64,000 bases of DNA from Halocafeteria seosinensis (Eukaryota): NCBI GenBank assembly GCA_001687465.1, contig LVLI01000005.1, positions 124,001 through 188,000 of the forward strand, in the 5' to 3' direction. How positions within the stretch are numbered: the first letter of the stretch is position 1; the number at the start of each line of letters is the position of its first letter. Of this stretch, positions 12,066 through 45,586 are shown in pieces. The position numbers were made by a program, and so were the translations under genes. The notes below the pieces were generated by a model. It worked only from the letters and a program-made list of their open reading frames with translations, made no database searches and was not told the DNA's origin.

Positions 12066-12996
12066 TGCAAATCCGCGCAGTATACTACGGAATGAGCGAG
12101 ATGGTACCAGAGGAAGTGGAAAACAGCGTCGAGCACTAAGTAGCATCCTTGCTAGGTCACAAGCATGTTGAAATTGTATGCCGTAGGACATCATGGTAGA
12201 GGGACTACGTATTCAATATGTGCGAGCATAAAGTGTCCGAAACGTACAGATAGTTAACTAAGCACCAAGCCAACTTGCTTAGCTAATAATGGGCAATCTC
12301 AGACCAATCTGTAGAAATAGACAAAGCACTCGCCTCGTTCTTGTGGAGGGTTGCGACGACCCTTATTTAGTGTAGAACTGAAAATTGTACGAGTTGGATC
12401 CTGTGCGACATCGCAATGGAACATGTTGACAGGTGGTTGTGCTTGCGTAGCCCGGCAGCATCCTCCTGGTGTGAAAGCGAACGTGGATTACGACTTGAAG
12501 TTCTATACAGGCTCCAGCCTGTAGCACACAGCCACGAGGTGAGTAACCGAGTTTACTTGGACTTCCGATTTGATAAGCCCATGTCACATTGAATGCGCCT
12601 CGAACTGCATGAACGACGTAAGTATATCTGTGAACAATTAGTCTTTGGAAGCAATTATTCGGGTGGAAACACTTTATGTACTTCAACCTAAAGCGTTTAC
12701 GTGGCGGCTTGCAATCGAATGTTGCAAGTGTCTCTACGCTTGTTGTGAATACCCATAGCGTTTTCTCTTCCTTGTTCGAACCTTAGGGTGCTAAGATGGG
12801 CTTGCTTTCTCCATTGCTATTGTACAGGGCTGGCGCATACCGAGAACACGTGCATGGTGGGAAATGACTAGACGAAGTTTGCTCGGATTATATAAGGTTT
12901 AGCATGGAAAGGAGGGATTGATCGTGGTGGAATCACGTTTCTCCGACTGGGAGACTTAGTTGGCTAGCTAAATACGAACGGAAAGAGCTCTTTGCC

Positions 12997-15900
12997 ATGT
13001 TCCTATTGGAGCGAGTAAGACAGTTCAGTGATGGCTTTCAACGAAGACTGTATCGCCACCTACTGCGTAGGTCTTTGGCCGGATATTTGGCGAAAGATGT
13101 TGACCTAGAGTCTATAGAGGTAACGCCGAGTATGGGTATAGCCACGGTACGAGGTTTGGAACTGGACATTGCCGCTTTCAACCACGTCTTCGCAACCAAC
13201 GGAGTTGTGGTTACTGCAGCCTCGGTGGACACCGTGACCCTTCACGCCTCTTTGAGCTCGCTGTTGCACCCGACAGAACCAGGTTCTGGTATGGAACTCA
13301 TTCTTAATGGGCTTTTTGTTGATATCTGTTTTTGCCAAAAAATGTCGCCGAAACCTGGTACTCCTGGTTTCGAAGGCGACGCTAGACAATCGGAAGCAAC
13401 AAATGACTTAAGTGGTGAGAGTGACGATCTTCTGGGTTTAGGATCTGTTACTGACTATGTAAACCAAATCATAGAAAGTCTCAACATTTGCGTCAGGAAC
13501 ATCAAATTGCGTTTCTGGTCACGGTTTTCCAGCAGTGAACACTCTATGCACTTGGTTTTTAGCAGCAAAGAAGGCCTCACAATCCAGTTTCCGAAAGAGG
13601 AAGAAACAGGAGAAATCCCGAATGACGACGCAAACGCAAGTGTCTATTCGGCTTTGGAGTCGGAAGACGAAGACGAACAGCAGCAATCGCCTAAGATACT
13701 TGCACGCCTGTTTCAGCTTCACGAGTTTAGCATTCATGCAGTGCACCAGAACAAGATACTGGTGACGCTATTAGAGAGCAACCCCACCTCATCTCAGCAC
13801 TCCTGTCCTGCAGCTTCTGTCGAAGTAGTTCTGGAGGAGAATGCTACGCAGGAAACCAGTATCACAGTAAACATGGAGGTCGCCGATGTAGCCAGCCATC
13901 TCACATTCGTTGATTTGGGAGAAATATATCAAGAGTTTAGTGATTGCAGCGAAATCGTACCGCCAGCGGTCCCAGGAATAGGGACAAGCCCTTGTAGAAG
14001 ATCTCCACCGAAACGACCCCTTAGAGACGAAGTTACTGCCTCGGATGAATCTCTATTGCACTCGCTTCTGTCGTCAAGCGACCAGAATGCCTCACCGCAT
14101 CGAAAGAACGACGGCATACTAAAACGTTTTGCCGATGTGGCCCATGCCTACTGGTATGGGGACGACAGCGATGAGAACGATGAGTATGTTGAGGGAGAGT
14201 TGTCGACTACGGCACCGGAAGGAAAACCTGAAGAGGGAAGTATGTTCCTGAGGCCTGGAAATAACATTCAGGGAGGGAAAAAGTCAGTCAGGTTTTCCGC
14301 TGAAAGCGACGCTGGAATAACAGAGTCCGCTAGATTCGTTCATAGTGGCCTGGATGACCTCAATGATCTCAACGATAGTCCTGACCATTCAGCTTCCAGT
14401 GAAGACTCAAACGTATGGGCGAGTGCATGTGACCTAGGAGTGTCCCAAAGCGTGAACGAGTGTAGGGACTACTATAAAATCCGGCAAACAAGAGCAGATG
14501 CTTCGATGGCTTCCTCGAGGGTCGCGCGCCCTGCTTTGAAGTCCTTAGCGGAGTCGGCTAGAGCTTACGGGCTAGCCGCTTCTACCAATGAAATCTTTGA
14601 ATCCTGTCGGTCTTTTTCCCTTGAGAAGAGCTTTGGTAGCAATGTATCGCTGAATTGTTCTCTGCATCATGTTACCGCCGAGTTAGTCGGACCAAATAGT
14701 GAATCAACTTTTGCACTCAAAGACATCGTTTTGGCCTACAGGCAATGCAAGAAAAAGCTCTCGCTTGATGTTACCGTTGGCTACGCCGGAGACCCATCGT
14801 CTCTCTTCGAATTTGGAGATCTGTCTGCGCACGGTGATTCATTCTCACCCTGGACATCTGGGGATCCGCATGTGGTGGTGTCGATTAAGGAAAATGTTTT
14901 CGACAACTTCCAGTCTCCGGTTGTTTCAGCCCGACTTGCCCCGTTGCGTGTCGAAGTACCACTAGGATTGATTCTAGACGCTCAGACGATAAGTCACAGT
15001 ATACAAGAGTGTCGTCAGCGCAGCAGGCGGGATGTTGGATTGCCAGGAAGAGCAACATTACCTACAGTAACCTGTGTAACATGCCCAGCACTTGTGGTAA
15101 ATGTTCAAGCCCCCAAGCAAAAAGGAAACGAGGTGATAAATGGACTTGAGGCAGCCGTTGATGACATACGTATTTGGTCATCTGAAAGGAAATCTCATGA
15201 TCAGTCTTGGCTCCGGTCACTTACGGTAGACTGCACAGAATTCTCGGTGAGAAGTTTCTTAAATACTGAAGAAGGCGGAAATGCTTCGTTACTGTTTAGG
15301 TCGTCATCAATTTCCTGCCCTGTCCAATGGCCTATACAGCAATATGCCGCAGTCCGACCCTTTGTCGTCTTCCAGGAACGTCCATTTGAATGGGGAGAGG
15401 ACAACGTCTTAAACAGGATATTTCGAGTGGATCAATGCCGTAGCTCGCTATCTGGTAGAGGTGGCCAAGCGTTCGTTCTAAATTTCGGTGCTGTAGTGTC
15501 TGGTAGCATCACTGCTAGCGATTTTAATCAGCTTATCTCCTTTTTCAACGAGATAATCCATCCTATGAGCCGTAGCCATAAAGGAGACCCTGGGAGCAGT
15601 TCGAAGTCGGAACTAGTCTTCGCTTGCTGTGCTGAGCAAATAAAGATGTATTTCAATGCGTCTATACCGGTGAAGAACGACCGGTCCGAGCTATGTGCTT
15701 TATTTTCTGGCTTCCAACTCATTGTTCCCGGAAGCGACGCATCACAGTCCTCTTATTTCGTAGATGCCCATAATGTATCACTTTCCGAAGAAGCTCTGTC
15801 AGACCAAGGGGAAAACACGGAGTGTAACTGTCTTATACACAGCTTCGAAACGGATACTAAAGGCCCGCCTGTAGCACTGTCGTCAATAAACCTCAATTCC

Positions 15901-18900
15901 TTTCGTGATTCTGGACACGAGCATCAATGCTTCTGCGGATATGGAAGGAATAGTGAACATTTTGGCGAGGGAACGATTAGACCTGCACTAAACACAACGT
16001 CTCCATCGTTGTCACTAGCTATCGTACGGAGTGGAGTTAAGCCTGCAGATACCAGTGTCACGTTTAGAAGGACTGTGATCAGGAAGTTACATTATTGGGA
16101 TTGGATTCAACGAATCGTTGATTCAACTACCTCCCAGAACGCGGACAAGAGCTTTGACGAAAAGCAGAACACGCAAATAGGTTACGTAGTTCTTGTACTC
16201 GAAAACTGTCTCGGTCTATTCAACAGTAGAGATTACATTTCCAGCAAAGACGATTGTGCAGATCTTGATCTACCATTCTGTCTATGGCTGAGGGATGGAA
16301 AGTACACGTGTACTTCCCAAGAAGATAAGCAGTCGCGTGATTCCTATAGTATGCACGCTGTGAACGTTCATGACGTTGAACTATACGTGAACGATGATGG
16401 AAAGGAGTTGTTAAGTAGTATTTCGAGAATAGTTGAACGAAACCATGCAAGTAGAGCCTCCAGTTGTGATGAAGCTGCTGACCTAATGTTTCAAACGCAT
16501 GTTGGTGTAGATGTATCTGAAACGGATAAAGTTTCGGATATTCCTCGGCCTACAAACGATACCGGTGGACTACTGGAAACGGGTGGATTCGTCCGCATCA
16601 TACATGGAAACTATATTGGAATTGGCATACAAGTCAACGAGGTATGCTCGTATCCGAGCTTATGGAGCTACAGAATGTTGAATAATATTCCTAGTTCTCA
16701 AATTACGGTGTCGATTGGCGATGTATCCGTTCGAATGGGCTCCGATACATTGGGTAAGCTAGTTCATGTGCTTGCGCGGTTAGCTGCCGACGCTGAAGCC
16801 GGTGCTAACATCCAGAGTCCCGGCAGTTCTCCGGGTGTGTTGCCGGAGCGCTCCCCAGAAGTAAGGAACCCGACCGTCTCACTTGACAGTTGCATCCAAA
16901 GCGATTTCTTTGAAGCGGAATCATTGGCGAAGGAGACTCTGGACACTAAGGGAGATAGCGAAAGCTCGCTTACGACCGAGGCTCCCTCGGATGGACCGAA
17001 TGGTACCTCTGACGAATATTCTGTTCGCTGGCTTGAAGAAACTGAGCATATAGATGATCTAATGCATACAGGTGCAGTCAACTACGCTTCGTCTATCGCC
17101 GAACCTTCAAGTACCGTAACTCTCAATTTGTCGACTGAAGAGCTTTGGAAATGGTGCGAAAATAGATGGAATATATCTAGAATGTATCGCTTCGGTCCGA
17201 ACTCAGAAGCGAGTATGCTGATACCGACTCTGAAGAATATCGTTCTGCATCGATCACCTGCTGCTTCTGAACAACTTCCTGTTGCTGCCGCGGTTGTGAG
17301 GAGTTCCAACCCTTCCGAGAGGGTACCTGCCGCATCGCAGGTATTTGATTCAAGAGCGTTTCCTCTTCGAAATGATTGGGACTTGTTGCCTTGGTTATCT
17401 CCTCCTTTGCCCCCGGATATATCGGAAAATGAGTCGGAAACGTCAACTTGGTGCTTTCCTCCCCCAATTCACCCCATATTCGAGCTGGAAAAGTTCGATG
17501 GCCCAAGGAGCTTGCGCTTACTCTGGGATGACTCCGCTCGTGCTTTGACTCTTCCGTTGGAGTGCTTGGAACAGAGTCATCTCAATCTCTCGGAAGAGGG
17601 ATCTCATGCAGTACTACATGGTGAAGGAAGCGGAGTAGATTTAGACGGGGACGATGCGGGCGTAAATGAAGCTGGCAGCGAGTTTCGGTTCATGCCTCCA
17701 TTCCCCTACGATGAAGGAATCGTGACCCGGGGACCACTGTACAAGGACAGCGCCGGATGGAAAGCCGATGTTGATTCTATATCTCTCAAGAGTTCCGACA
17801 GTTTTGAACGGTCTGTCTTGCTGAGCGCCGGGGTAGAGCAGACTATAAGTATTACTTTGAAATCTCTCGCAATTAAGATTTTTGCTTGCTTGGATTTTCC
17901 GAGGGAAAAAACAGACGGTCGGGATGAGTCTCGCAACGTTTATGGGAACAGACAGGAGAGTGGCTCCAGAGAAAGCAAATCGGTCATTGAAGGTTATTAT
18001 CCAGATATTTCCGAGAGTGGCGGTATGCGCTCTTCCTTCAGAAAAGATGCAGCATCGCTAGAGATATCATTGTGTACAGTCACAGCAAGGATAACCCAAT
18101 GGAGGTCCGAGCTTCGTAGGGCAGAGGACGATTTGGACTTCCTGGTTTCGCTATCGAGGGAGCAGGCTTGCCGGTATCTTAAAGGTCCTTGGCTGTCGTA
18201 CACATACGTAATGGATATTGCGGAAATTTACGGAGATTTGTATGGAGGCCGCGCTCAAATTCAGAATACAGTGAGAGGGAGAGACTCAAGTGGTTGGAGT
18301 CGACCAACTCGAACGAAGCACTTGAGAATTGCATGCCCACAAGCCCCAACTACGACCTCATTTCGCATTCGATTCGATGTACTTAGGTCATACGTGCCTG
18401 ACGAAAATGGGAAGAAAGTTTATTTATTACCCCAAAGAGCACTGAGTATGTCTATACCATCCTACAGTCTTGTGCTGGATTGCAACGTTCTGGAGATTCT
18501 CGAAAGCATCGCAGTGCTCGCGTTTGACACATCGTTGCATGGTAAACAACCATCCGTTAGTGTTTTGACGGCAGAAAATTGTTACCGCTCCGTTGACTTT
18601 TATTTCAGGTTAATTCTGAGGAAGCTTATGGGAGAGTCATATGATCGAAGTGGGGTTGTTATCCGTCATCGTTCTGAGTCGGGTTCGTCCAGTTCGTCTG
18701 AGGTTGAGGGAGTGGATACGCAAACTACATTCGGGTTCCCATCCCACGAGCGCAAACTGCGTCGAGAGTTATTGATCCAGCAGGCCGAAACACAAGAAAC
18801 TTGGACGCTGAGGTCACTGCACGTGGAGCCATGGTGTCTTCATGTAACCTATCTCCCGGCTAAACCACTTCTCTCAAATTCTCATTTTTCACCCTTACTA

Positions 18901-19716
18901 AGATGCCTGAACATGTTTCCAGTTCGTGATGTTGCCTTATCTTTCGAAGGAGCTTCCGCTTCCCCCTTACCACTGTTTACGAGTAGGCGCTCTCTGGAGC
19001 TTGGAGTAGAATTTTACCCGGCCAGCCAACTTATCTCTCCATGCCACTCCAGACCAATTGGTTATACTGCTTCGTTGGAAGAGGCAATGCGAACAGCGGT
19101 GGAGTTGCATGCCAAGTATCTGCTCAAAAAACAATTTCAGAACTTTGTATACAACGTAGACGCGCCGCTACTTCCGCTGCATTCACTATCCAAAGTCAGC
19201 AGTAAAGCAGCGGACGTCGTTTTCCTACCCTGGAAAGTTTATCGCTCGGGTACAACTACTGCGGAGTCTACTGGAGCAGTAGCCAATAGTATAGCCATGC
19301 TCCTGAAGGCTGTAACAATTGAGCTTCTTCGGAATTCCTCGAGAGCCAGTGCATATGCAAGGGATGCCCTTCAGGGAGCTGCCTCGGCAGCTTCGCAGTC
19401 AAAGCATGAGCAACGAGGGGCTCTGAGCGGTGTTTGGGATAAGCTACGAGGTGTTGCCGGGAAAGGGAAACCCCCCAGGAATGCTTCAGCTGCATCGTCG
19501 CAGAGAAGTGGTGGGCATGATACTGTTGTCGCGCTGAGTCTGGAGGGTAATACAAACAATCGCTTAGGAATGGAAGCGATCCCTTTAGCGTTATTACGTC
19601 CAATGGCGGGTGCTGTGAATTCTATTCACGAAGCACTGACGTGGTTGAACAACCTCTTTGAAGACGATGTCTCGGCTTCTGGCTCGAACCGCAGCACAGA
19701 CTCCAACTACAGATGA
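12997..19716 (+). CDS. ATG2: Autophagy-related protein 2-like lipid transfer protein (2239 aa, single exon)
   Basis: Chorein_N-like start (RRLYRHLLRRSLAGYLAKDVDLESIEV...VRGLELD) and ATG_C-like end (DVVFLPWKVYRSG; AIPLALLRPMAGAVNSIHEAL). Size is typical; the middle is divergent. Confidence 0.8.
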   Translation: MFLLERVRQFSDGFQRRLYRHLLRRSLAGYLAKDVDLESIEVTPSMGIATVRGLELDIAAFNHVFATNGVVVTAASVDTVTLHASLSSLLHPTEPGSGMELILNGLFVDICFCQKMSPKPGTPGFEGDARQSEATNDLSGESDDLLGLGSVTDYVNQIIESLNICVRNIKLRFWSRFSSSEHSMHLVFSSKEGLTIQFPKEEETGEIPNDDANASVYSALESEDEDEQQQSPKILARLFQLHEFSIHAVHQNKILVTLLESNPTSSQHSCPAASVEVVLEENATQETSITVNMEVADVASHLTFVDLGEIYQEFSDCSEIVPPAVPGIGTSPCRRSPPKRPLRDEVTASDESLLHSLLSSSDQNASPHRKNDGILKRFADVAHAYWYGDDSDENDEYVEGELSTTAPEGKPEEGSMFLRPGNNIQGGKKSVRFSAESDAGITESARFVHSGLDDLNDLNDSPDHSASSEDSNVWASACDLGVSQSVNECRDYYKIRQTRADASMASSRVARPALKSLAESARAYGLAASTNEIFESCRSFSLEKSFGSNVSLNCSLHHVTAELVGPNSESTFALKDIVLAYRQCKKKLSLDVTVGYAGDPSSLFEFGDLSAHGDSFSPWTSGDPHVVVSIKENVFDNFQSPVVSARLAPLRVEVPLGLILDAQTISHSIQECRQRSRRDVGLPGRATLPTVTCVTCPALVVNVQAPKQKGNEVINGLEAAVDDIRIWSSERKSHDQSWLRSLTVDCTEFSVRSFLNTEEGGNASLLFRSSSISCPVQWPIQQYAAVRPFVVFQERPFEWGEDNVLNRIFRVDQCRSSLSGRGGQAFVLNFGAVVSGSITASDFNQLISFFNEIIHPMSRSHKGDPGSSSKSELVFACCAEQIKMYFNASIPVKNDRSELCALFSGFQLIVPGSDASQSSYFVDAHNVSLSEEALSDQGENTECNCLIHSFETDTKGPPVALSSINLNSFRDSGHEHQCFCGYGRNSEHFGEGTIRPALNTTSPSLSLAIVRSGVKPADTSVTFRRTVIRKLHYWDWIQRIVDSTTSQNADKSFDEKQNTQIGYVVLVLENCLGLFNSRDYISSKDDCADLDLPFCLWLRDGKYTCTSQEDKQSRDSYSMHAVNVHDVELYVNDDGKELLSSISRIVERNHASRASSCDEAADLMFQTHVGVDVSETDKVSDIPRPTNDTGGLLETGGFVRIIHGNYIGIGIQVNEVCSYPSLWSYRMLNNIPSSQITVSIGDVSVRMGSDTLGKLVHVLARLAADAEAGANIQSPGSSPGVLPERSPEVRNPTVSLDSCIQSDFFEAESLAKETLDTKGDSESSLTTEAPSDGPNGTSDEYSVRWLEETEHIDDLMHTGAVNYASSIAEPSSTVTLNLSTEELWKWCENRWNISRMYRFGPNSEASMLIPTLKNIVLHRSPAASEQLPVAAAVVRSSNPSERVPAASQVFDSRAFPLRNDWDLLPWLSPPLPPDISENESETSTWCFPPPIHPIFELEKFDGPRSLRLLWDDSARALTLPLECLEQSHLNLSEEGSHAVLHGEGSGVDLDGDDAGVNEAGSEFRFMPPFPYDEGIVTRGPLYKDSAGWKADVDSISLKSSDSFERSVLLSAGVEQTISITLKSLAIKIFACLDFPREKTDGRDESRNVYGNRQESGSRESKSVIEGYYPDISESGGMRSSFRKDAASLEISLCTVTARITQWRSELRRAEDDLDFLVSLSREQACRYLKGPWLSYTYVMDIAEIYGDLYGGRAQIQNTVRGRDSSGWSRPTRTKHLRIACPQAPTTTSFRIRFDVLRSYVPDENGKKVYLLPQRALSMSIPSYSLVLDCNVLEILESIAVLAFDTSLHGKQPSVSVLTAENCYRSVDFYFRLILRKLMGESYDRSGVVIRHRSESGSSSSSEVEGVDTQTTFGFPSHERKLRRELLIQQAETQETWTLRSLHVEPWCLHVTYLPAKPLLSNSHFSPLLRCLNMFPVRDVALSFEGASASPLPLFTSRRSLELGVEFYPASQLISPCHSRPIGYTASLEEAMRTAVELHAKYLLKKQFQNFVYNVDAPLLPLHSLSKVSSKAADVVFLPWKVYRSGTTTAESTGAVANSIAMLLKAVTIELLRNSSRASAYARDALQGAASAASQSKHEQRGALSGVWDKLRGVAGKGKPPRNASAASSQRSGGHDTVVALSLEGNTNNRLGMEAIPLALLRPMAGAVNSIHEALTWLNNLFEDDVSASGSNRSTDSNYR

Positions 19717-35885: not shown

Positions 35886-36300
35886 TATTGATGGTTCGAA
35901 ACGACGTTTTCTTATACCTTTCCCTTACGGATAAAAAACCACACACAACAAGTATGTACAATGTGATCGACTACACTCTGGTCTAACAAACCTCTGTTTA
36001 CGGACACGAAGGAACTCGGCAAGGAAGCGCGGACTTCCAAGTTGAACTTGGGGGGCGCGCGACCTCGGCGGATCCTAAGATATGCTCTATAGAGGGACCA
36101 CGTGCATTACTAGTGTAAGATGTTATGAGTTGATTGGTATTCTCTTTCGTTCTTGCTACTTAGGAAATAGGTCTTGCGGAATCAGTGATTGAAAAGGTGT
36201 AAAAGTCTCCCCGAGGCAGTAGATTGAGCCGGAGGGCCTACACACAGATTGCGGCGTTCGTATGGGCTAGTGTAGCGATCGATACGTGACAGAGATTATT

Positions 36301-37581
36301 ATGAAGAACAGTATTTGGACAACTCTGAGTGTGCTCTCGGCATGCTTTGTTGCCTTTCAACAGAGTGCCTCGCAGGTAAATGGCGCCGAAATTATCGAAA
36401 TTACAGAAGAAAACGTGAACGAGACGTTTGCCAATAATGACCCTCTGTTGGTCATGTTTTACGCCCCATGGTGTGGAAAATGCCGCAAGATGAAGCCAGA
36501 GTTTGAGAAAGCAGTGAACAAGTCTGAGGCGGAGGGGATGCCGTTCTCGTTTGGAAGAATCCATGCGGACAACCAAGCGGACCTGACTGCATCGCTACAC
36601 GTGTCGAGTTTTCCTTCCTTCATGACTTACACAAATGGATCATCAAGCCGTTTACCCGTTCTTGGCAGCGGAGAAGCCTTATTAACCTTTCTGCGACAGG
36701 CAGTTGGACGAGATCCGGGCAGCTCTGCGAAGCCGTTGGAGACTCTGGACGAAGCCGGGGAATGGCTGTTCTGGAGAGGAACGGATGGTAGTAAACTAGA
36801 GACTACCCTCGTTGGATTTTTCCCTCCAGATATCGAAGAAACGAAATCAGGGAAACAGCTGAAGGGTATGTTCGATCAAACTAGCCGGGAATTACTTATG
36901 TATCTCCGATTTGCCGAGATTAGGAACCCTGAGCTTATCAAGACTTTCAACATGCCAGTGGATAAAGCTTCAATCGCTTTATACAAAGATTTCGACGAGG
37001 GAAAAAATGTCTACGGGGGAGAAGCCAATGCTGATGAATTGAAAGATTGGATTCAACGTCTAAGTACACCCTTAGTGACTACCGTGGATCATTGGGAGTT
37101 GCGGTCTTTCCAACGTCGTGGCAATGCGCTTGTGCATGTTTTCGTTCCTGAAAGTACTGTTGAAGATGGACCCGCCCTCCAACACGTAAAGGATGAAACT
37201 AGGAAGGCCGCAGCCCCATTGGAAGACGAGGGAGTTTTCTCTCGTGGCCAAATGACGTTTGCCATCACAAACGGGGAGAAATACCAGGAATGGCTCAAAC
37301 CCTTCGGACTGGTCAGAGATCGTCTCCCGGCGTTTGGTCTTGTCAACTTGCACGGAGGTGATCCCGATAAGTTTGAATTTTTTGGTTTTCAAGTCACAAG
37401 TGCTGAGTCAAAGGAATTGATCAGTCAGCGGCAAGAGCAGACACCGGCAGGCAGCGACTACATTGTTGAAGACGTAGACCTCCCTATACAACGTGTTCAA
37501 ACTTTCGTCAGAGATTTCATCAAAGGGAAATTGAATAAGGTTGAGGAAAATGCCATTGCCTATGATTCCTTTGGAGCGTAG
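36301..37581 (+). CDS. Protein disulfide isomerase-like thioredoxin-fold protein
   Basis: Signal peptide; VMFYAPWCGKC active site; downstream b/b'-like segments (IALYKDFDEGK...ELKDWIQ); single exon. Confidence 0.85.
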   Translation: MKNSIWTTLSVLSACFVAFQQSASQVNGAEIIEITEENVNETFANNDPLLVMFYAPWCGKCRKMKPEFEKAVNKSEAEGMPFSFGRIHADNQADLTASLHVSSFPSFMTYTNGSSSRLPVLGSGEALLTFLRQAVGRDPGSSAKPLETLDEAGEWLFWRGTDGSKLETTLVGFFPPDIEETKSGKQLKGMFDQTSRELLMYLRFAEIRNPELIKTFNMPVDKASIALYKDFDEGKNVYGGEANADELKDWIQRLSTPLVTTVDHWELRSFQRRGNALVHVFVPESTVEDGPALQHVKDETRKAAAPLEDEGVFSRGQMTFAITNGEKYQEWLKPFGLVRDRLPAFGLVNLHGGDPDKFEFFGFQVTSAESKELISQRQEQTPAGSDYIVEDVDLPIQRVQTFVRDFIKGKLNKVEENAIAYDSFGA

Positions 37582-38081: not shown

Positions 38082-41000
38082 ATGGACACCGACGGGACAG
38101 GTGCTTCCCAAGCCAACGAGGAGAGTTCAACGGCACAGATTAATGGCTCTCACCATGTATCTGTGCGCTCCTTCAGCGCTTCTTCGTCTACTCGAGAGAA
38201 AGAAGACTCCATCGAAGGCGTATGGGTGGAAACAGCGGACGATAAAGGACGCACATACTACTATAACACGGTTACTTTAGCCGCCCAATGGGAGAAGCCC
38301 GCGGGGGAAAATGTTATTTCAGAGAACGATATCGAATGGTTGGAAGATGACACTCCGGAGAATAGTGTGCATGAGGATGATGAAGCTGAAGAAGCTATGG
38401 TGGATAAGGTAGTCCAGTCCTTGCAATTGTCACGGTCTCAAACAGTGCGTGAGAGTGAGAACGATGACCCCGTGACTTTGGAAGCCGCACTTTGTGAAAT
38501 ACATTACCTTCGGCAGGAGAAGAGGTATGTGTGACCTGCGGATTGGAATGGGTTTCTAAGATGATGTATTACCGGTGTCGTTTGTATTGTCTCCCGTTTG
38601 TTGCCTGCAGAGAACTCAAAGAAGAAATTGAGCAGTGGAAGAAAGCCTATGAAAGGGAGGAACGGGAGAAAGCAAAGCTGACTTCCTATATCGAAGATCT
38701 ACAGACACGATATAACACGCTTGAATATCAAAGTTCATACAGCAGCAATGCTAGCCTGGCAAAACAGGACAGCCAAGCTTCTGCATCAACATTGTCGCCT
38801 TCTGGTTCCAGCGAGCACATTGACAACAGCGAAATCAAGAACGTTATGTCCCTGATGAAGAGTATTTCCCTCTTCCACACGTTCTCAGAGCAGCAATTCA
38901 GTCGTCTCTGCATAGCTGTGCGGAAGCAAAAGTGGCGACCGGGAGAGATAATCATTCGGCAGGGTGAGTCCGGAGACATGTTTTTTATCATCGCCTCCGG
39001 CCGAGTGGCTGTACGGAAGAAGAGCAAAGAGCATCTCGAATCGCACGAATCTTCAAGCAGCTTGGACTACGATTTCAACTCATTGTCATTTTCTGGGAGA
39101 GAATTCGGGGATTTAGACGACGAGAGTGACAATGAAGAGGACGACAGTTTTGGCGCCACTGTCGCGGAATTAACAAAGGGGTTCTTTTTCGGTGAGCGAG
39201 CCCTGTTGCTAGACGAACCACGGGCAGCGACTTGTATGGCTCTTACTGAGGTAGAGTGCTACACTTTGAATCGACATGCGTTCAAATCGGTATTATCTGA
39301 TGTGGAAGAAATACTTGGTTCGTATGCAAAGAAGCACTATACCGAATCCCCCGAATTCTTGACGCTCTCCAGTCATATTACGTCATTCGGACATCGTATG
39401 CATGAGGCGCGCAAAAGAGAAATTCCGCTGCACAAGCCTATCGAGGATGTTTCCGAGATGGACCCTTTGCGAGGAACTATCGACTCCATGTCCGTGTTTT
39501 CACCGGAGCATAGTTTGAATGAGACTCTTGAGCGAATTTGTGACACTCTTGGGCAATTGCTCAACGTTCGCTGTGCCCGTGTGTTTTTGTATGACAAAGA
39601 CAAGAAGACGTTCATGATCCCAGCACCTTCGCTGCTAGACATGCGGGTTAGTGAACGGAGTAAAAATAGCGTCAATGTGGAGGCATCTTCGAATGCTACG
39701 TACACTAATGATACGTCTGATTCTATGACTGCACTATGCTACAAATTTCGAAAGGGAATATTCCAGCATCCGTATATATCGGTAGGAGAGTCTGGGATAA
39801 CTAGGGCCTCCTTCGCGGAAGATAAGGCTGGAGTTCTCTCAGCGGCCATCCAAGAACGGGACGTCTTCACAGTTGAGAACGTCGTGGAAGATTCCCGGTT
39901 CACCCCAGGATCAGATTGGGCAGAATGCCAAAAACAAATTGATGAGGTATACAAGGAATTTCATCAGGTTGCTAAAGAAAGCTCTTGTGCTTCCCTATTT
40001 TCATATTCGAAGACGAGAGATCCTAGTCATGCTCTTACAAGGATGAACTTCATGGTTCCTCTAAAGGGTGATGAACACGGATGGCGTCACTGTCAGATGA
40101 TGCTGGTCCCTATTCTCTGGCAAGGACATCCTGTTGGTGTCATGCAAATTATAGGTAAAAGTGGTCGAACGCTATACAAATCCACTCGCTCATTCTCAGC
40201 TATTGTTGGACAAAGAGTGAATCCAGCCGACGAATCGACACAAGAAGAAAGTTTTGAAACAGTCTTCAGTGAAGCTGATGTCAAGACTGCCAAAGGTCTT
40301 GCTGATGTTACTGGTGAAGCGTTTCAGAAATTTAGGCATGAGATGGAGCTTTTCAGTTTGTCCAAGACTTTTGTTCCCTTATTCACGCTTACTAGTAGAT
40401 TCTCCGTTCGGGTAGGGATTGGTGAGAGGCTGACGATGCCGAAATATATTCTGCAAAAGGTGAAGAACAGCAAAAAGAAGCGAATTGCCGACCTAAGTGC
40501 AAAGGTGGTTGCCAGAGTGTTCCATGGTGAATACGAGCTGTGTGATTCTGTAACCACTGCTCCCTGCCATTTTTCATCTCCAAACGGTGATGAGTTGGCG
40601 GACCAGTTGCCGGTTGGGCATTCCACTAAAAATTTGAGGAAGGAAAAGTCTGGCAGTATGGAGAGCGATACTGCGGTAGAAACTAACTACTTCGTTCCAT
40701 GGCATTCGACCATCACTTTCGATATCCGAATCTGTGATCTGCCACCCGCTTGCCGCGTCGTGTTTGAAATCCAGTTGAGTGATTCAACAACAATTGGATG
40801 GACCGGCTGCAACCTGTTTAGCTACCAGCGAAAGTTGAACACAGGCAAAACTACTATTAAGCTCTGGCCAGGTGAAGTTACTAATGCGCAGATTGCCACC
40901 ACAGCGTCTCCTTCAAATGAATACTCAGATGATGAGCGAGTCGGCATGTTGCACATCGAACTACCGTCGTTTGAGCGGGATGTATGGAAAAATAGTGGAG

Positions 41001-42766
41001 CGCTAGCTGCCGTTCAGGCCGCGAGGAGTACGGATTTAAACGGACTATCGATTAACAAATCAGACTTGCGTATGATCAACGAGAGGAAGCAACTGCTTGA
41101 TGATGTGGCTAATGCACAAGAGTTTTCGGGAAATAAGGACAGACTGCTGAGACTTTTTGATCGCGAACCTCTATATTCTATGACTGTTGACGAGAAGTCA
41201 CTTGTATGGAGATGTCGTTACTTTCTTCTTAGATATAGCTCTGCATTACCGAAATTTCTCTTGAGTGTTCCTTGGGATAATTGCGTCGCTGTCGAGGAGG
41301 CGTACATGCTCATGCTTCAGTGGACAATCCTGCAGCCTAGCGATGCACTGCAGCTCTTGGACATCAAATTTCCGGATCCAAAAGTGCGGGCACTTGCGGT
41401 TAATTCGCTGGAGCAGTTGAACAGCGATCAGTTGCACCAATATATGTTGCAGTTGACCCAAGTTCTGAAGTTCGAACCATATCTTGATTCGGCGTTGGTG
41501 CGCTTTTTGTTGAGACGCGCTCTTCGTGAACCGCGACTTATTGGGCACGTGCTGTTCTGGTACTTGAAAGCCGAAATGCACATACCCGAAATAGCTGCCC
41601 GTTTCGGGGTTGTCCTAGACCAGTACTTAAGAAATTCGGGAGAACACAGGACAGATCTTGGACACCAAATGTTTGTAATGACAAAGCTGGAACGCATTGC
41701 GAGCGAAGTGAAGGCGGTCACGACGAAAGAGGAAAGGATGCAAACTGTGAGGAGTCGCGTAAAAGAAATTGTCTTTCCAGAAAAATTTCAGCTTCCTATA
41801 TCTCCTCATTTAGTTGTTGACGCTATACTTCCCGAAAAGTGCCGAGTGATGAGCTCAAAAAAGCTGCCACTTTGGTTGACGTTCGTTAGTGCCTCAGAAT
41901 ATTCTTCTGGAACGCAGGATCTTATCAAAGTTTTGTTCAAAGCCGGTGATGATCTTCGCCAAGACCAATTAACATTGCAGATCTTGGGAATTATGGATCG
42001 TCTATGGAAAGAGCACGACTTGGACCTCTGTATGAGTGCGTACAGATGCATTAGTACGGGTGATGAACTTGGTATGGTGGAAATAGTTGAGGACGCTGAA
42101 ACGCTTGCAAACATTGTCAAGGAGGAAATGTTCAACGACAAGCAAAAGAAAAAGGCAGGATTCAAGGAGAAGGTTCGCGCCGCCATGCATGCTATGTGGA
42201 AAAGCTCTGTTTTCAAAGACTGGCTGCTCAAGCAAGAGTGTAACAAAGACGACCATGAAGGCATGAAAAATCGGTTTGTAAGATCATGCGCGGCTTATTG
42301 CGTTGCCACGTATGTTCTTGGGATCGGCGACAGGCATAATGACAACATAATGCTAACCAGAAATGGCCAACTCTTCCATATAGATTTCGGCCACTTCCTC
42401 GGCAATTTCAAATCAAAACTGGGATACAAGAGGGAAAAAGCCCCGTTCGTTTTTACTCCGGCGTTTGCCGAAGTTATGGGCGGCATAAACTCTGCTGATT
42501 TTGCAAGATTCGAGGATCTGTGCTGTGAGGCCTACAATATTCTTCGGAAGAACGCCAACCTCTTGATCACCCTTTTCTTCCTCATGCTCAGTTGTGGTCT
42601 CCCAGAATTGAAGGAAGAATCAGATATATATTGGCTCAGAGACAAGCTGATGCTGAATGTAACAGACGCAGAGGCCAGTTCAGCCTTTCGTGAGAGAATC
42701 CGCGAGTCCATGAATACGAAGGCGACATTATTAAACCATGCAGTCCATAGTTTCGCTCACGGCTGA
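38082..42766 (+). CDS. Class I-like phosphoinositide 3-kinase with N-terminal WW, coiled-coil, cNMP-binding and GAF domains (~1532 aa)
   Basis: Exons 38082-38524 and 38611-42766. WW (WVETADDKGRTYYYN...QWEKP); CNB (IIRQGESGDMFFII...FFGERALLLDEPRAAT); GAF; PI3K C2; helical domain (ALPKFLLSVPW, FPDPKVRALAV); catalytic domain (MSSKKLPLWL, FKAGDDLRQD, IGDRHNDN, HIDFGHFLGNFKSKLGYKREKAPF). Confidence 0.93.
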
Positions 42767-42773
42767 GAATGAC

Positions 42774-45586
42774 CTATTTGTTAGGGCGCGAACCATTTAA
42801 TACTATAGATTGGAAATGTCTCACGCAGTTATCAGCTAAATTGTTCCGCTTTAGATACGGTTTGTTTGTTGTATCGGATGTCGTAGATCCCTCCATTAAC
42901 TTCCATTCACCATATCCTCCTTCCATAACAGATACGACATGACCAGGACAACATATTCGCGAAACTCTCATGATTTGAGAAGTCATCCATTCATAATCTT
43001 CAGCAGATAGATCTAAACCCATTTTCGTACCATCGCTACTTAAGTTCCCAGCATCTCCTTTGCCTCCGTCGAAGCCCGCCGAAATCAATATAAGGTCAGG
43101 GTTGTACGCCCGAAGAGCAGGAAGAAGGCGCTGCTTAATGGCACTCCGAACCCCATGTCGACCGCCATAGTACAGGCCTTCAGAGCCGTCATAGTCACCA
43201 TTCTTGTGATGAGCGGAACTTCGCCATAGGGGGGACACTGGACAGTTGATTACGTTATACCAGTTATTATCATCCAGGCCACTACCCGGATAGAATCTCG
43301 ACGACTTATAGCGATCTGTGTAGAGCTCGTCTTCCGTTGTGCGAAAACTGCTCTCATTCGAGTTAGGAGCAGGTGCGGAAGATGTGTCCGAGGCTGTATT
43401 AACACTGTTTTGGGAGTTTGAGCTTTCAGGTCGCGGGGCATCCACATTACTACATTCGAAGTCATCACCAAAACTTTTAGCCCTTCTCCTCCTCTTGTTT
43501 GGCTGAGAGGCGTTGCTGGGTGTGTCCGGATTGTCGTCGCTCACCCTGTTGTTTGTTTCTGTCTCTTTCTCTTCATCCCAAAGGTGAACGGAGAAGAAAA
43601 ACAGGTGGTCCACGTGCTTCGTCCGGCGAATATAGTTCTTTACTATCTCTTCCGTCCCGTTACCATGATGAACGTCGAAGTCTATAATTGCAACTTTCTC
43701 TGGCCGAGGGCCAACACTCCTATTTAGTGCGTGTAGAGCACCAATCGCTATGCTGTTAAAAACACAGAACCCGCAACTAAGGAAACTCTCACCATCATTG
43801 ATCAATCCACTTTCTCCCTGTACTTTATAATTTCATATTCTTTAAACCGGAGAACAGGTAGTACCAAGTGCGGAACAGACAACTTACAGCATGGTGGCCG
43901 GGAGGCCTCACGACGCAGAGCGCATTGCGGCAAGTACCTTGCAGGACCTGATCGACTGCATGGCAAACCGCACCTGCAGCTCGAAGCGCTGCTTTGAGGG
44001 TACCGCTTGAAAAGTACGTATCACTGTGGCAAGGTTGTTTCAAGTCATTCAAAGAAGTTCTCTGTACACCTCGTTGGACCACGGGCGTGAAAGGAACTGG
44101 ATGCTCCCTCGCTCTGACGTGGTCATCGAGGCTCCTGACCAAGCTTGTATACCTCCGAGAATGAGCAAGCTGCACTTGCTCCCACGTTACGGTGCGGAAG
44201 TTGCTGGAGAGATAAAACGAGTCTGCATACACTCCGGCAACAGAGCCTTTAAACCATTTCTGGGGCCATATCGTTCCCACATCAGGTATTTTGGCCCATT
44301 TGGACTTCATTTTAGGAGTGTACGAGGAAAGGGAAACTTCTGGACTAGCTAAAGGATACTTGATGCAGGCATCTTTCAAATCTGATCTCTTAGTGAAAAC
44401 GCAGGAACCTGTATATCATAGCATACGCATTTAGGCGCCGATACTTCTGTCCAGAAACAACTCTGGCGTTACCTTTATCAGAGTACGCAGCTGCAACCAG
44501 TCTGTTAAGAACATAGCTCGCCCTTTGCGAATGCTCCTGATGCTCTTCTCTGGGCTTGTGTAGTAAGAAGTCTTCATGGTGGAGCACCAGCGTCCGCAGA
44601 CATGGGTACCTTGCGTAAAGGGCATCCGCAGAGTCTTTTCGCAACTTGAAAGAGATCTCCCCTTGAAAAATGCCAGCGACATCCATCGGATCCATATAAT
44701 CCTCGTTTTGGGAAGAAATATCTGCTCCACTGTCCAACAATGCCATAATGGAGGAATTTCTACCCAAACGACAAGCTCTGAAACACCACAAAAAAGGAGA
44801 CAACGCTTATAAAGAAAGCGCTATCGTTGGGTTCTCAAATCCCTTACCTGTGTAATGGTGTGTCCAGGTTATTACTCTTTTCATTTACTCTTGCACCATA
44901 CGCGACTAAAACACGGACGCTTTCTGCACCACCGCACGCTGCTGCCCAGTGCCTGCAGTTTCGGTGTTGACGGTGACATATTCCAGTTACGCAGCGTCAA
45001 ATCTGTCAACTTACAATGCAGTGAAGCCTTCTTTATCTTTGCAATACACTGATGCTCCACGCTCCAAGAGCAACTTGATACAAGCAACTGATGTCTGCAC
45101 TGTCTGCAGACCCGCCGCCAGGATCAAGGGTGTGAATCCTTGGGGATCTACTTCATCGAGAATTATATTTAGCCTGGTTTTGGGAGCATTTTCTGCTATC
45201 CTATCTAACTCTTCTCTCAGCGATATTGTATCTTCTGACGATACGAATCCATGAAGTGAGTTTAACATGGAAGGCCCAGGAGAAGTTCCATCCGAGGGAT
45301 GTACCGGTGGAGGCGACGACAAGGACAACTCAAAACCGAAGGATCCAATTGACCGAGCACGTTGCAATGCTGGTGTAGAAGCTCGAAACAGTTGCTCAAT
45401 GTGATCCGGCTGTTGGGGATTCGAGTACATGTCGGCGACGGGGCCATTCCGTTCGGGCGACCGAATTTCAAGTTTCGGTGGTGTGAATGGCGCACTCGTT
45501 TGGTCGTCGGAGCTTCCTGCTGCATGCTTCGGGGATGAATTCCCCTGTGTAGGAGTGCTCCCATTGAAGGTTTTCTTATGGTCCAT
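42774..45586 (-). CDS. Ankyrin-repeat + class II-type histone deacetylase
   Basis: Ankyrin repeats (GFTPLILAA, GFTALHWAA, DTPLHRAC) spliced in frame to HDAC motifs RPPGHHA, GFCVFN, DFDVHHGNGT, FYPGSG, ISAGFD, MEGGY; four introns. Confidence 0.9.

What the first reader, a model, noticed from the sequence alone, without database searches (positions are those of the whole stretch)
38082..42766. Candidate cyclic-nucleotide-gated class I PI3K (WW-coiled coil-CNB-GAF-C2-helical-kinase)
Seen: the second exon fuses a PKA-R/PKG-type CNB domain (~38850-39310) with an intact phosphate-binding cassette (FGERALLLDEPRAAT), a PDE-style GAF domain (~39510-40330) and a complete PI3K C2/helical/catalytic core. 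The first exon adds a WW domain. Known: the basic activation loop (GNFKSKLGYKREKAPF) resembles class I p110 enzymes that phosphorylate PI(4,5)P2, and these normally carry adaptor- and Ras-binding domains where the sensors sit here. PRAA rather than PRTA is the cAMP-preferring CNB signature. Inference: one polypeptide couples cAMP (and possibly a second ligand via GAF) directly to PIP3 synthesis without a regulatory subunit. I know of no characterised enzyme with this architecture but cannot confirm novelty.
Basis: partly seen in the sequence, partly recalled or inferred. Interest (0 to 1): 0.88.

Follow-up and report, generated by a model that had tools for sequence, protein, structure and literature searches.

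The report
Cyclic-nucleotide-sensing PI3-kinase family of stramenopiles
This spliced, transcribed gene encodes a PI3-kinase whose usual adaptor- and Ras-binding domains are replaced by a cyclic-nucleotide-binding domain and a GAF domain, an arrangement shared by dozens of relatives named as stramenopile protists, so it is likely a lipid kinase switched directly by cAMP, a type of regulation that appears undescribed and is untested.

Summary
Observation confirmed. A two-exon gene (38082-38524, 38611-42766) gives a 1532-aa WW/coiled-coil/CNB/GAF/C2/helical/kinase protein. The 86-nt intron is skipped in contigs of 3 of 4 runs, and an identical 1532-aa transcript-derived protein is on record. It is not a one-off: 77 protein clusters carry CNB plus PI3K kinase. 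Named members are thraustochytrids, chrysophytes and Triparma. They form one branch (SH-aLRT 98-99) apart from RBD-bearing PI3Ks, with oomycete orthologues that keep a GAF but lost the nucleotide pocket. Catalytic residues and the class I basic activation loop are invariant in 46 of 46. The CNB pocket is intact in 38 of 46; the window's copy lacks both PKG cGMP determinants, so it is predicted to prefer cAMP. Added here: CNB and GAF sit in the ABD and RBD slots, and the helices after the CNB appear to be the retained ABD-RBD linker (weak to moderate evidence), a plausible allosteric route. Corrections: strictly it is class I/II-type, and this copy's GAF is degenerate. Binding, regulation, direction and PIP3 product are untested. 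No paper describing the architecture was found.

The parts
38082..38524 (+). Exon 1 (codons 1-148): acidic N-terminus, WW domain, start of coiled coil
38525..38610 (+). 86-nt GT..AG intron, phase 2
   Evidence: skipped in contigs of runs X2, X3, X4; retained in X1
38611..42766 (+). Exon 2 (to stop codon)
38223..38300 (+). WW domain (res 48-73)
   Evidence: Pfam WW 33.8 bits on exon 1; WW in 13 of 46 family members by precomputed Pfam
38472..38731 (+). Predicted coiled coil (res 131-188), heptad in register across the splice junction
   Evidence: read by eye from the sequence printed; no coiled-coil program run
38831..39343 (+). Cyclic-nucleotide-binding (CNB) domain, res 222-392, with an acidic low-confidence insert at 39029-39148
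   Evidence: Pfam 66 bits; fold Z 18.8 to PKG 7t4t; closest PDB sequences Plasmodium PKG, then PKA-R
39188..39232 (+). Phosphate-binding cassette, res 341-355 (G342, E343, R344, R352, A353)
39305..39415 (+). CNB C-terminal helix plus following helix (res 380-416); likely the retained ABD-RBD linker of class I/II PI3Ks
   Evidence: weak to moderate
39464..40357 (+). GAF domain with large insertions (res 433-730), in the place of the RBD; nucleotide-binding motif degenerate in this copy
40385..40972 (+). PI3K C2 domain (res 740-935)
   Evidence: Pfam PI3K_C2 50.8 bits
41132..41656 (+). Helical (PIK) domain (res 989-1163)
   Evidence: Pfam PI3Ka 186.7 bits
41705..42763 (+). Lipid kinase domain (res 1180-1532): K1258, D1262, DRH 1388-1390, N1393, DFG 1406-1408
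42383..42448 (+). Activation loop with two basic boxes (K1415; K1421-R1422), class I type

Best explanation
The gene encodes a single-chain class I/II-type PI3-kinase in which a CNB domain and a GAF domain stand where the adaptor-binding and Ras-binding domains stand in other PI3Ks, and it is likely switched directly by cyclic nucleotide, most likely activated by cAMP, to make PIP3. Shown: gene structure, domain order, intact catalytic and pocket residues, family conservation. Predicted: CNB and GAF pack on the catalytic core. Inferred: cAMP binds the pocket (about 0.85 for binding some cNMP, 0.7 for cAMP over cGMP); binding moves the CNB hinge and C-helix, which run straight into the helix pair that corresponds to the ABD-RBD linker; this loosens the CNB from the core, as ABD disengagement does in p110alpha, and allows membrane binding and catalysis (about 0.65 for direct regulation, 0.65 for activation given regulation); the product is PI(3,4,5)P3 (about 0.75). 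The WW domain and coiled coil likely localise or dimerise the enzyme. This copy's GAF is likely a structural spacer or binds another ligand, while relatives with an intact PDE-type GAF may read a second nucleotide.
For: Gene and transcript are real. 46 of the top 120 kinase-core hits, the window's protein included, carry cNMP_binding; 41 carry PI3K_rbd; none carries both, and 0 of the 41 hit family CNB or GAF profiles at E<1e-3. A further 31 CNB+kinase clusters came from a profile search. The CNB/GAF proteins are one side of a branch at SH-aLRT 98 (120 rows) and 99 (48 rows picked from them). Pocket G-E-R intact in 38 of 46 over wide divergence (33-36% identity to distant members), which argues for selection on ligand binding. 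Both PfPKG cGMP determinants (R473, T493; passages) are Ala here. Catalytic residues, K1415 and R1422 are invariant in 46 of 46; K1415 counts to p110alpha K942, conserved in class I (passage). A full-length model of relative P0253 has pTM 0.87 over 1154 aa, more than the 65% core alone should give (inference). Superpositions on p110gamma and p110delta begin at model 192-194 against chain 152-155 and 118, i.e. in the linker, while Vps34 alignments begin at C2 or later. A profile from pre-RBD linkers ranks the post-CNB helix first in 11 of 46 and in the top five in 26 of 46 proteins, the best of all aligned positions tested. ABD and linker movement activates p110alpha (whole text; passages).
Against: No binding or activity data exist. 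8 of 46 members lack the pocket Arg, and oomycete orthologues have lost the cassette (0 of 7 aligned keep G, E or R) yet keep an intact kinase, so the enzyme can persist without nucleotide sensing. The linker homology is weak by sequence: the family-to-RBD profile search found nothing significant, hhalign gave P=0.054 and probability 1%, the site was chosen after seeing it and the rows are related, and it ranks only 11th in the window's own protein. The first linker helix has pLDDT under 50 in the P0253 model. By structural Z, Vps34 ranks above class I (39-40 against 33-34), although with lower identity (25-30% against 32-35%) and mostly fewer aligned residues. The full-length model is of a 35%-identical relative, not of this protein. 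A 2013 paper says PIP3 production was not yet shown in such protists (passage). Direction of regulation cannot be read from sequence.
Confidence: 0.55

Rival explanations
1. Same direct regulation, but by cGMP, or with nucleotide inhibiting the enzyme by clamping the CNB onto the core.
For: The CNB's closest solved sequences are Plasmodium PKG domains. R344 matches the PfPKG capping Arg484 (35 of 46 R). 13 of the 38 intact pockets have Thr or Ser after the Arg. The family GAF is closest to PDE5 GAF (E 7.6e-20 for P0253).
Against: The window's protein has Ala at both cGMP-reading positions, and none of 46 has Arg at the beta5 position. ABD release activates p110alpha.
Confidence: 0.17
2. CNB and GAF are mainly structural or protein-docking replacements for ABD and RBD; any nucleotide binding tunes localisation or stability, not catalysis.
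For: Pocket lost in 8 of 46 and in oomycetes while the fold remains. This copy's GAF motif is degenerate.
Against: Pocket kept in 38 of 46, and an Arg-containing cassette was found in 29 of 31 further members. Loss is confined to a few branches.
Confidence: 0.18
3. The enzyme is nucleotide-regulated but makes PI3P or PI(3,4)P2, like class II or III enzymes.
For: Vps34 and PI3KC2alpha score as high as or higher than class I by structural Z. Bikont enzymes are placed before the class I/II split. One review reports PIP2 as scarce in P. infestans though detected in P. cinnamomi.
Against: All 60 listed PDB sequence hits are class I p110, and the activation loop nearly matches p110beta, with both basic boxes.
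Confidence: 0.08
4. The architecture is an assembly or gene-model artefact.
For: All runs come from one study, and X1 may be the window's source.
Against: CNB to kinase is one open frame of 1422 codons; spliced contigs span it; 76 other clusters share CNB plus kinase.
Confidence: 0.01

Closest known systems
Class I PI3K catalytic subunits p110alpha/beta/gamma/delta
   Same: C2-helical-kinase core (best PDB hit p110beta, E 3e-130), catalytic residues, basic activation loop, and likely the ABD-RBD linker helices.
   Different: No ABD or RBD hit; CNB and GAF instead; WW and coiled coil in front; no sign of need for p85 or p101 (not testable here).
RBD-bearing class I/II PI3Ks of protists (Naegleria, Willaertia, Trimastix, Achlya hits; Tetrahymena PI3K1-3)
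   Same: Kinase core 45-50% identical over the searched region; single-chain enzymes; no regulatory subunit found in Tetrahymena.
   Different: They keep the RBD; they lie on the other side of a branch at SH-aLRT 98-99.
PKG and PKA regulatory CNB domains (PfPKG CNB-D, PKA RI/RII)
   Same: CNB fold (Z 18.8), pocket motif, capping-type Arg; in PfPKG the C-helix bridges sensor and kinase.
   Different: One CNB, not tandem; fused to a lipid kinase; no autoinhibitory pseudosubstrate identified.
GAF domains of PDE2/5/6/10 and cyanobacterial adenylyl cyclase (1ykd)
   Same: GAF fold; relative P0253 matches PDE5 GAF at E 7.6e-20.
   Different: Single GAF; in the window's protein only a weak match (1ykd, E 0.025), with insertions and a degenerate motif.
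Oomycete PI3Ks of about 1270 aa (Phytophthora, Pythium, Plasmopara, Nothophytophthora)
   Same: Nested in the same clade; GAF remnant in 14 of 14, CNB remnant at E<0.01 in 11 of 14.
   Different: Pfam sees neither domain; the phosphate-binding cassette is lost.

Membership tests
PI3K (any class) | C2, helical and kinase domains in order, with catalytic Lys, DRH and DFG | tested here: met
Class I PI3K | Activation loop with basic boxes (K942 equivalent, KRER-like) | tested here: met
   K1415 and R1422 in 46 of 46; alignment to p110beta; definition from passage
Class I PI3K | Ras-binding domain | tested here: not met
   No PI3K_rbd hit while controls score 56-83 bits; the slot holds a GAF fold
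Class I PI3K | Adaptor-binding domain / regulatory subunit | tested here: not met
   No p85-binding Pfam hit; profile match to p110 starts at C2; the slot holds a CNB. A partner subunit cannot be excluded without a genome
Class I PI3K | Kinase phylogeny groups with class I rather than II or III | tested here: inconclusive
   Trees lacked class II/III rows and a root; sequence hits all class I; structural Z favours Vps34, identity favours class I/II
Class I PI3K | Makes PIP3 from PI(4,5)P2 | not testable with these tools
   needs an assay
Class II PI3K | C-terminal PX and C2 domains | tested here: not met
   Protein ends with the kinase domain; no PX or C2 hit; definition
Class III PI3K (Vps34) | No domains beyond C2-helical-kinase | tested here: not met
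   Extra WW, CNB, GAF; definition; identity of relative P0253 to Vps34 25-30%
Canonical ligand-binding CNB domain | CNB fold with intact G-E...R cassette | tested here: met
Canonical ligand-binding CNB domain | Binds cAMP or cGMP | not testable with these tools
   needs an assay
cGMP-selective (PKG-type) CNB | beta5 Arg and cassette Thr | tested here: not met
   A333 and A353
cNMP-binding GAF (PDE type) | GAF fold | tested here: met
   Z 14.5 and 13.8
cNMP-binding GAF (PDE type) | N-K..F...DE motif (motif name recalled; pattern seen in PDE5 alignment) | tested here: not met
   G663-K664..F700...D704-V705 here; N-[KR]..F..[DE] in 24 of 46 relatives

The most novel reading that the evidence does not exclude
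A new class of cyclic-nucleotide effector: an ancient stramenopile PI3K in which both ubiquitin-fold input modules were swapped for nucleotide sensors, the CNB C-helix is wired directly into the old ABD-RBD linker, and cAMP turns on PIP3 synthesis with no regulatory subunit, Ras or protein kinase between; paralogues retune the pocket to cGMP or add a second input through the GAF.
Probability: 0.35. Interest if true: 0.92.

Novelty: new variant of a known kind. Interest (0 to 1): 0.78.

Why it matters
Known class I PI3Ks are switched by adaptor subunits, Ras-family GTPases and G-beta-gamma; cyclic nucleotides reach them only indirectly (established knowledge, recalled). A PI3K gated by its own CNB would join two core second-messenger systems in one chain and add a new cAMP effector. 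It revises the published view that class I/II enzymes outside unikonts all carry an RBD. It gives a single-chain natural model of ABD-linker allostery, the region hit by activating PIK3CA mutations. It also explains the unannotated N-terminal half of an oomycete PI3K. Compact relatives of 1120-1200 aa make the claim directly testable.

Tried and rejected
No genome is held for this window, so partner subunits, cyclases and PIP3 effectors could not be checked. No RNA holder was listed as such; expression rests on spliced contigs. The complex predictor was not available, so docking and dimer questions have no result. The Atlas held no usable record of this protein; relative P0291 gave one lead at 0.83, below the reliable range. 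A profile of the post-CNB helices found no significant hit in 41 RBD-bearing PI3Ks. The careful tree did not finish; the quick tree is reported, and no AU test was run. Foldseek lists were filled by one domain each. Earlier findings of the scan: none. Literature searches for the architecture: 0 papers, 3 unrelated by listing, 1 (passages unrelated), 2 (one checked, unrelated; the other seen as listing only); two searches were seen as top-25 listings of 176 and 309. Three oomycete papers that I recalled (Meijer and Govers 2006, seen only as a reference; a 2011 domain survey; a 2013 PI3P paper) were not read and may describe the oomycete member. Subscription journals are mostly outside the library. 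Rejected: frameshift or pseudogene at 38524 (intron shown), Vps34 or PI4K identity, pseudokinase.
Full report
Gene. The region holds an ATG at 38082, a GT donor at 38525, an AG acceptor ending at 38610 and a stop at 42764-42766; splicing gives 1532 residues without internal stop. From 38498 to the stop is one open frame of 1422 codons, so the CNB, GAF and kinase are contiguous whatever the splicing. Four public runs hold the stretch. Contigs of X2, X3 and X4 skip exactly this 86-nt GT..AG piece and carry the whole coding region in one contig; X1 keeps it and may be the window's source. The four runs are at most three samples of one study and their library type is not on record; I infer RNA from the splicing. 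A complete 1532-aa transcript-derived protein, P0153, is on record. The coiled-coil heptad runs in register across the junction (by eye).

Domains. Pfam passes its cut-offs for WW, cNMP_binding, PI3K_C2, PI3Ka and PI3_PI4_kinase; no RBD or p85-binding family is hit. GAF passes only as an isolated stretch (23.6 against 22.4 bits). An AlphaFold2 model of residues 215-740 (pLDDT 76, pTM 0.73) matches CNB domains (Z 18.8, rmsd 2.1, 135 aligned, PKG 7t4t) and GAF domains (Z 14.5 and 13.8, about 165 aligned). The GAF carries long low-confidence insertions.

Kinase class. All 60 listed PDB sequence hits are class I p110, best p110beta at E 3e-130; family profiles align to p110 only from the C2 domain onward. 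Catalytic residues, K1415 and R1422 are invariant in 46 of 46 family members. Counting from the DFG-H motif, K1415 is p110alpha K942, described as conserved in class I (passage). Against this, structural Z-scores for a relative's model put Vps34 first (39-40) over PI3KC2alpha (35) and class I (33-34), though identity is 25-30%, 31-32% and 32-35%. [quoted passage not shown] I file the enzyme as class I/II-type with a class I activation loop.

Family. Of the best 120 hits to the helical-kinase region (2521 passed among 7978 scored), 46 carry cNMP_binding, 41 carry PI3K_rbd and none both. A profile search gave 108 hits, 31 of them new CNB-plus-kinase clusters: 77 in all, a lower bound. Named members are Hondaea, Thraustochytrium sp. 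LLF1b, Triparma, Paraphysomonas, Epipyxis, an ochromonad and Spumella; one cluster member is labelled Symbiodinium sp. KB8, unresolved. Most members are unnamed, so 'stramenopile' rests on the named minority, and the window's organism is placed there by inference. On a tree of all 120 cores, 77 rows (46 CNB, 8 GAF-only, 14 named oomycete, 9 unlabelled) form one side of a branch at SH-aLRT 98; 48 rows that I picked gave 99. Both are quick, unrooted trees without class II or III rows. Five of the 8 GAF-only rows begin within a CNB remnant and look truncated. The oomycete proteins hit the family GAF profile in 14 of 14 and the CNB profile at E<0.01 in 11 of 14, against 0 of 41 RBD proteins at E<1e-3, but lack the cassette. 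P0294, from the same source series as P0153, is a 33%-identical paralogue with a clear GAF.

Nucleotide pocket. The CNB is closest to Plasmodium PKG, then PKA regulatory subunits. G, E and R of the cassette are intact in 38 of 46; the next residue is Ala in 21, Thr 9, Ser 4, Asn 3, Lys 1. PfPKG reads guanine with R473 and T493 and caps with R484 (passages); the window's protein has A333, A353 and R344. cAMP preference is the better reading, with cGMP-type variants among relatives. The GAF of relative P0253 matches PDE5 at E 7.6e-20, and 24 of 46 keep N-[KR]..F..[DE], but the window's GAF does not and reaches only E 0.025 to a cyclase GAF.

Mechanism. A full-length model of P0253 has pLDDT 86.7 and pTM 0.87; I infer that CNB and GAF are placed on the core, since the core is about 65% of the chain. 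I had no coordinates to inspect. Superpositions on p110gamma start at model residues 192-194 against 152-155, on p110delta 4v0i at 193 against 118, and on the PI3KC2alpha core at 204 against 4; three p110delta entries start inside the CNB against ABD-range residues 86-91; Vps34 starts at C2 or later (ranges only). By sequence, the best profile-profile hit between the post-CNB stretch and the upstream region of RBD-bearing PI3Ks (37 of 41 given to the script) falls on the pre-RBD linker, weakly (P=0.054). A matrix from that linker ranks the post-CNB helix first in 11 of 46 and top five in 26 of 46, against 6 and 12 at best elsewhere (site chosen after inspection, rows related, rank 11 in the window's protein). 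The reverse search was blank. So CNB likely replaced the ABD and GAF the RBD, with the linker kept and joined to the CNB C-helix. In p110alpha, ABD and linker mutants activate and ABD disengagement accompanies membrane binding; in PfPKG the C-helix carries the signal from pocket to kinase. The simplest model is that cAMP moves this helix, loosens the CNB from the core and switches on PIP3 synthesis. Every step after the anatomy is inferred.

Novelty. Searches found no paper on this architecture (checks in 42, 55, 79, 97, 103, 104 by passages or term counts). Database entries name members only as PI3K or hypothetical. The library lacks most subscription papers, and three recalled oomycete papers were not read. 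Verdict: real, conserved and apparently undescribed; a new regulatory variant of class I/II PI3K, with function untested.

Noticed in passing
window 42774-44500 (-): A histone deacetylase gene (Pfam Hist_deacetyl) converges on the PI3K gene; the stop codons are 7 nt apart. Spliced contigs of X2 and X4 run through both, which suggests overlapping 3' UTRs. Two minus-strand introns near 43817-43886 and 44407-44470.
   Followed up: partly
P0242, P0245, P0255, P0278, P0288, P0306 and other oomycete hits: Oomycete PI3Ks of about 1270 aa carry an unannotated GAF and a CNB-like domain without the phosphate-binding cassette.
   Followed up: yes
P0294: Second CNB-GAF-PI3K paralogue from the same source series as P0153, 33% identical, Ser after the cassette Arg, clear GAF.
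   Followed up: partly
P0214, P0216, P0218, P0219, P0224, P0017, P0206, P0235: Members, including Triparma, that lack the cassette Arg; the Triparma group keeps a strong GAF, so sensing may have shifted to the GAF.
   Followed up: partly
P0344 (cluster of P0206): One member labelled Symbiodinium sp. KB8, the only named non-stramenopile; contamination or transfer not resolved.
   Followed up: no
RBD-bearing hits, e.g. P0243, P0231, P0280: Many protist RBD-PI3Ks show a conserved domain upstream of the linker that looks ABD-like by eye.
   Followed up: no
P0207, P0210: Achlya proteins with PH domains and, in P0207, two RBD-C2-helical-kinase sets in one chain.
   Followed up: no
window 36271-37581 (+): Thioredoxin-repeat, PDI-like gene upstream of the PI3K gene.
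   Followed up: no
window 12922-19716 (+): Single 2264-codon frame with only a weak ATG2 hit (E 0.006).
   Followed up: no
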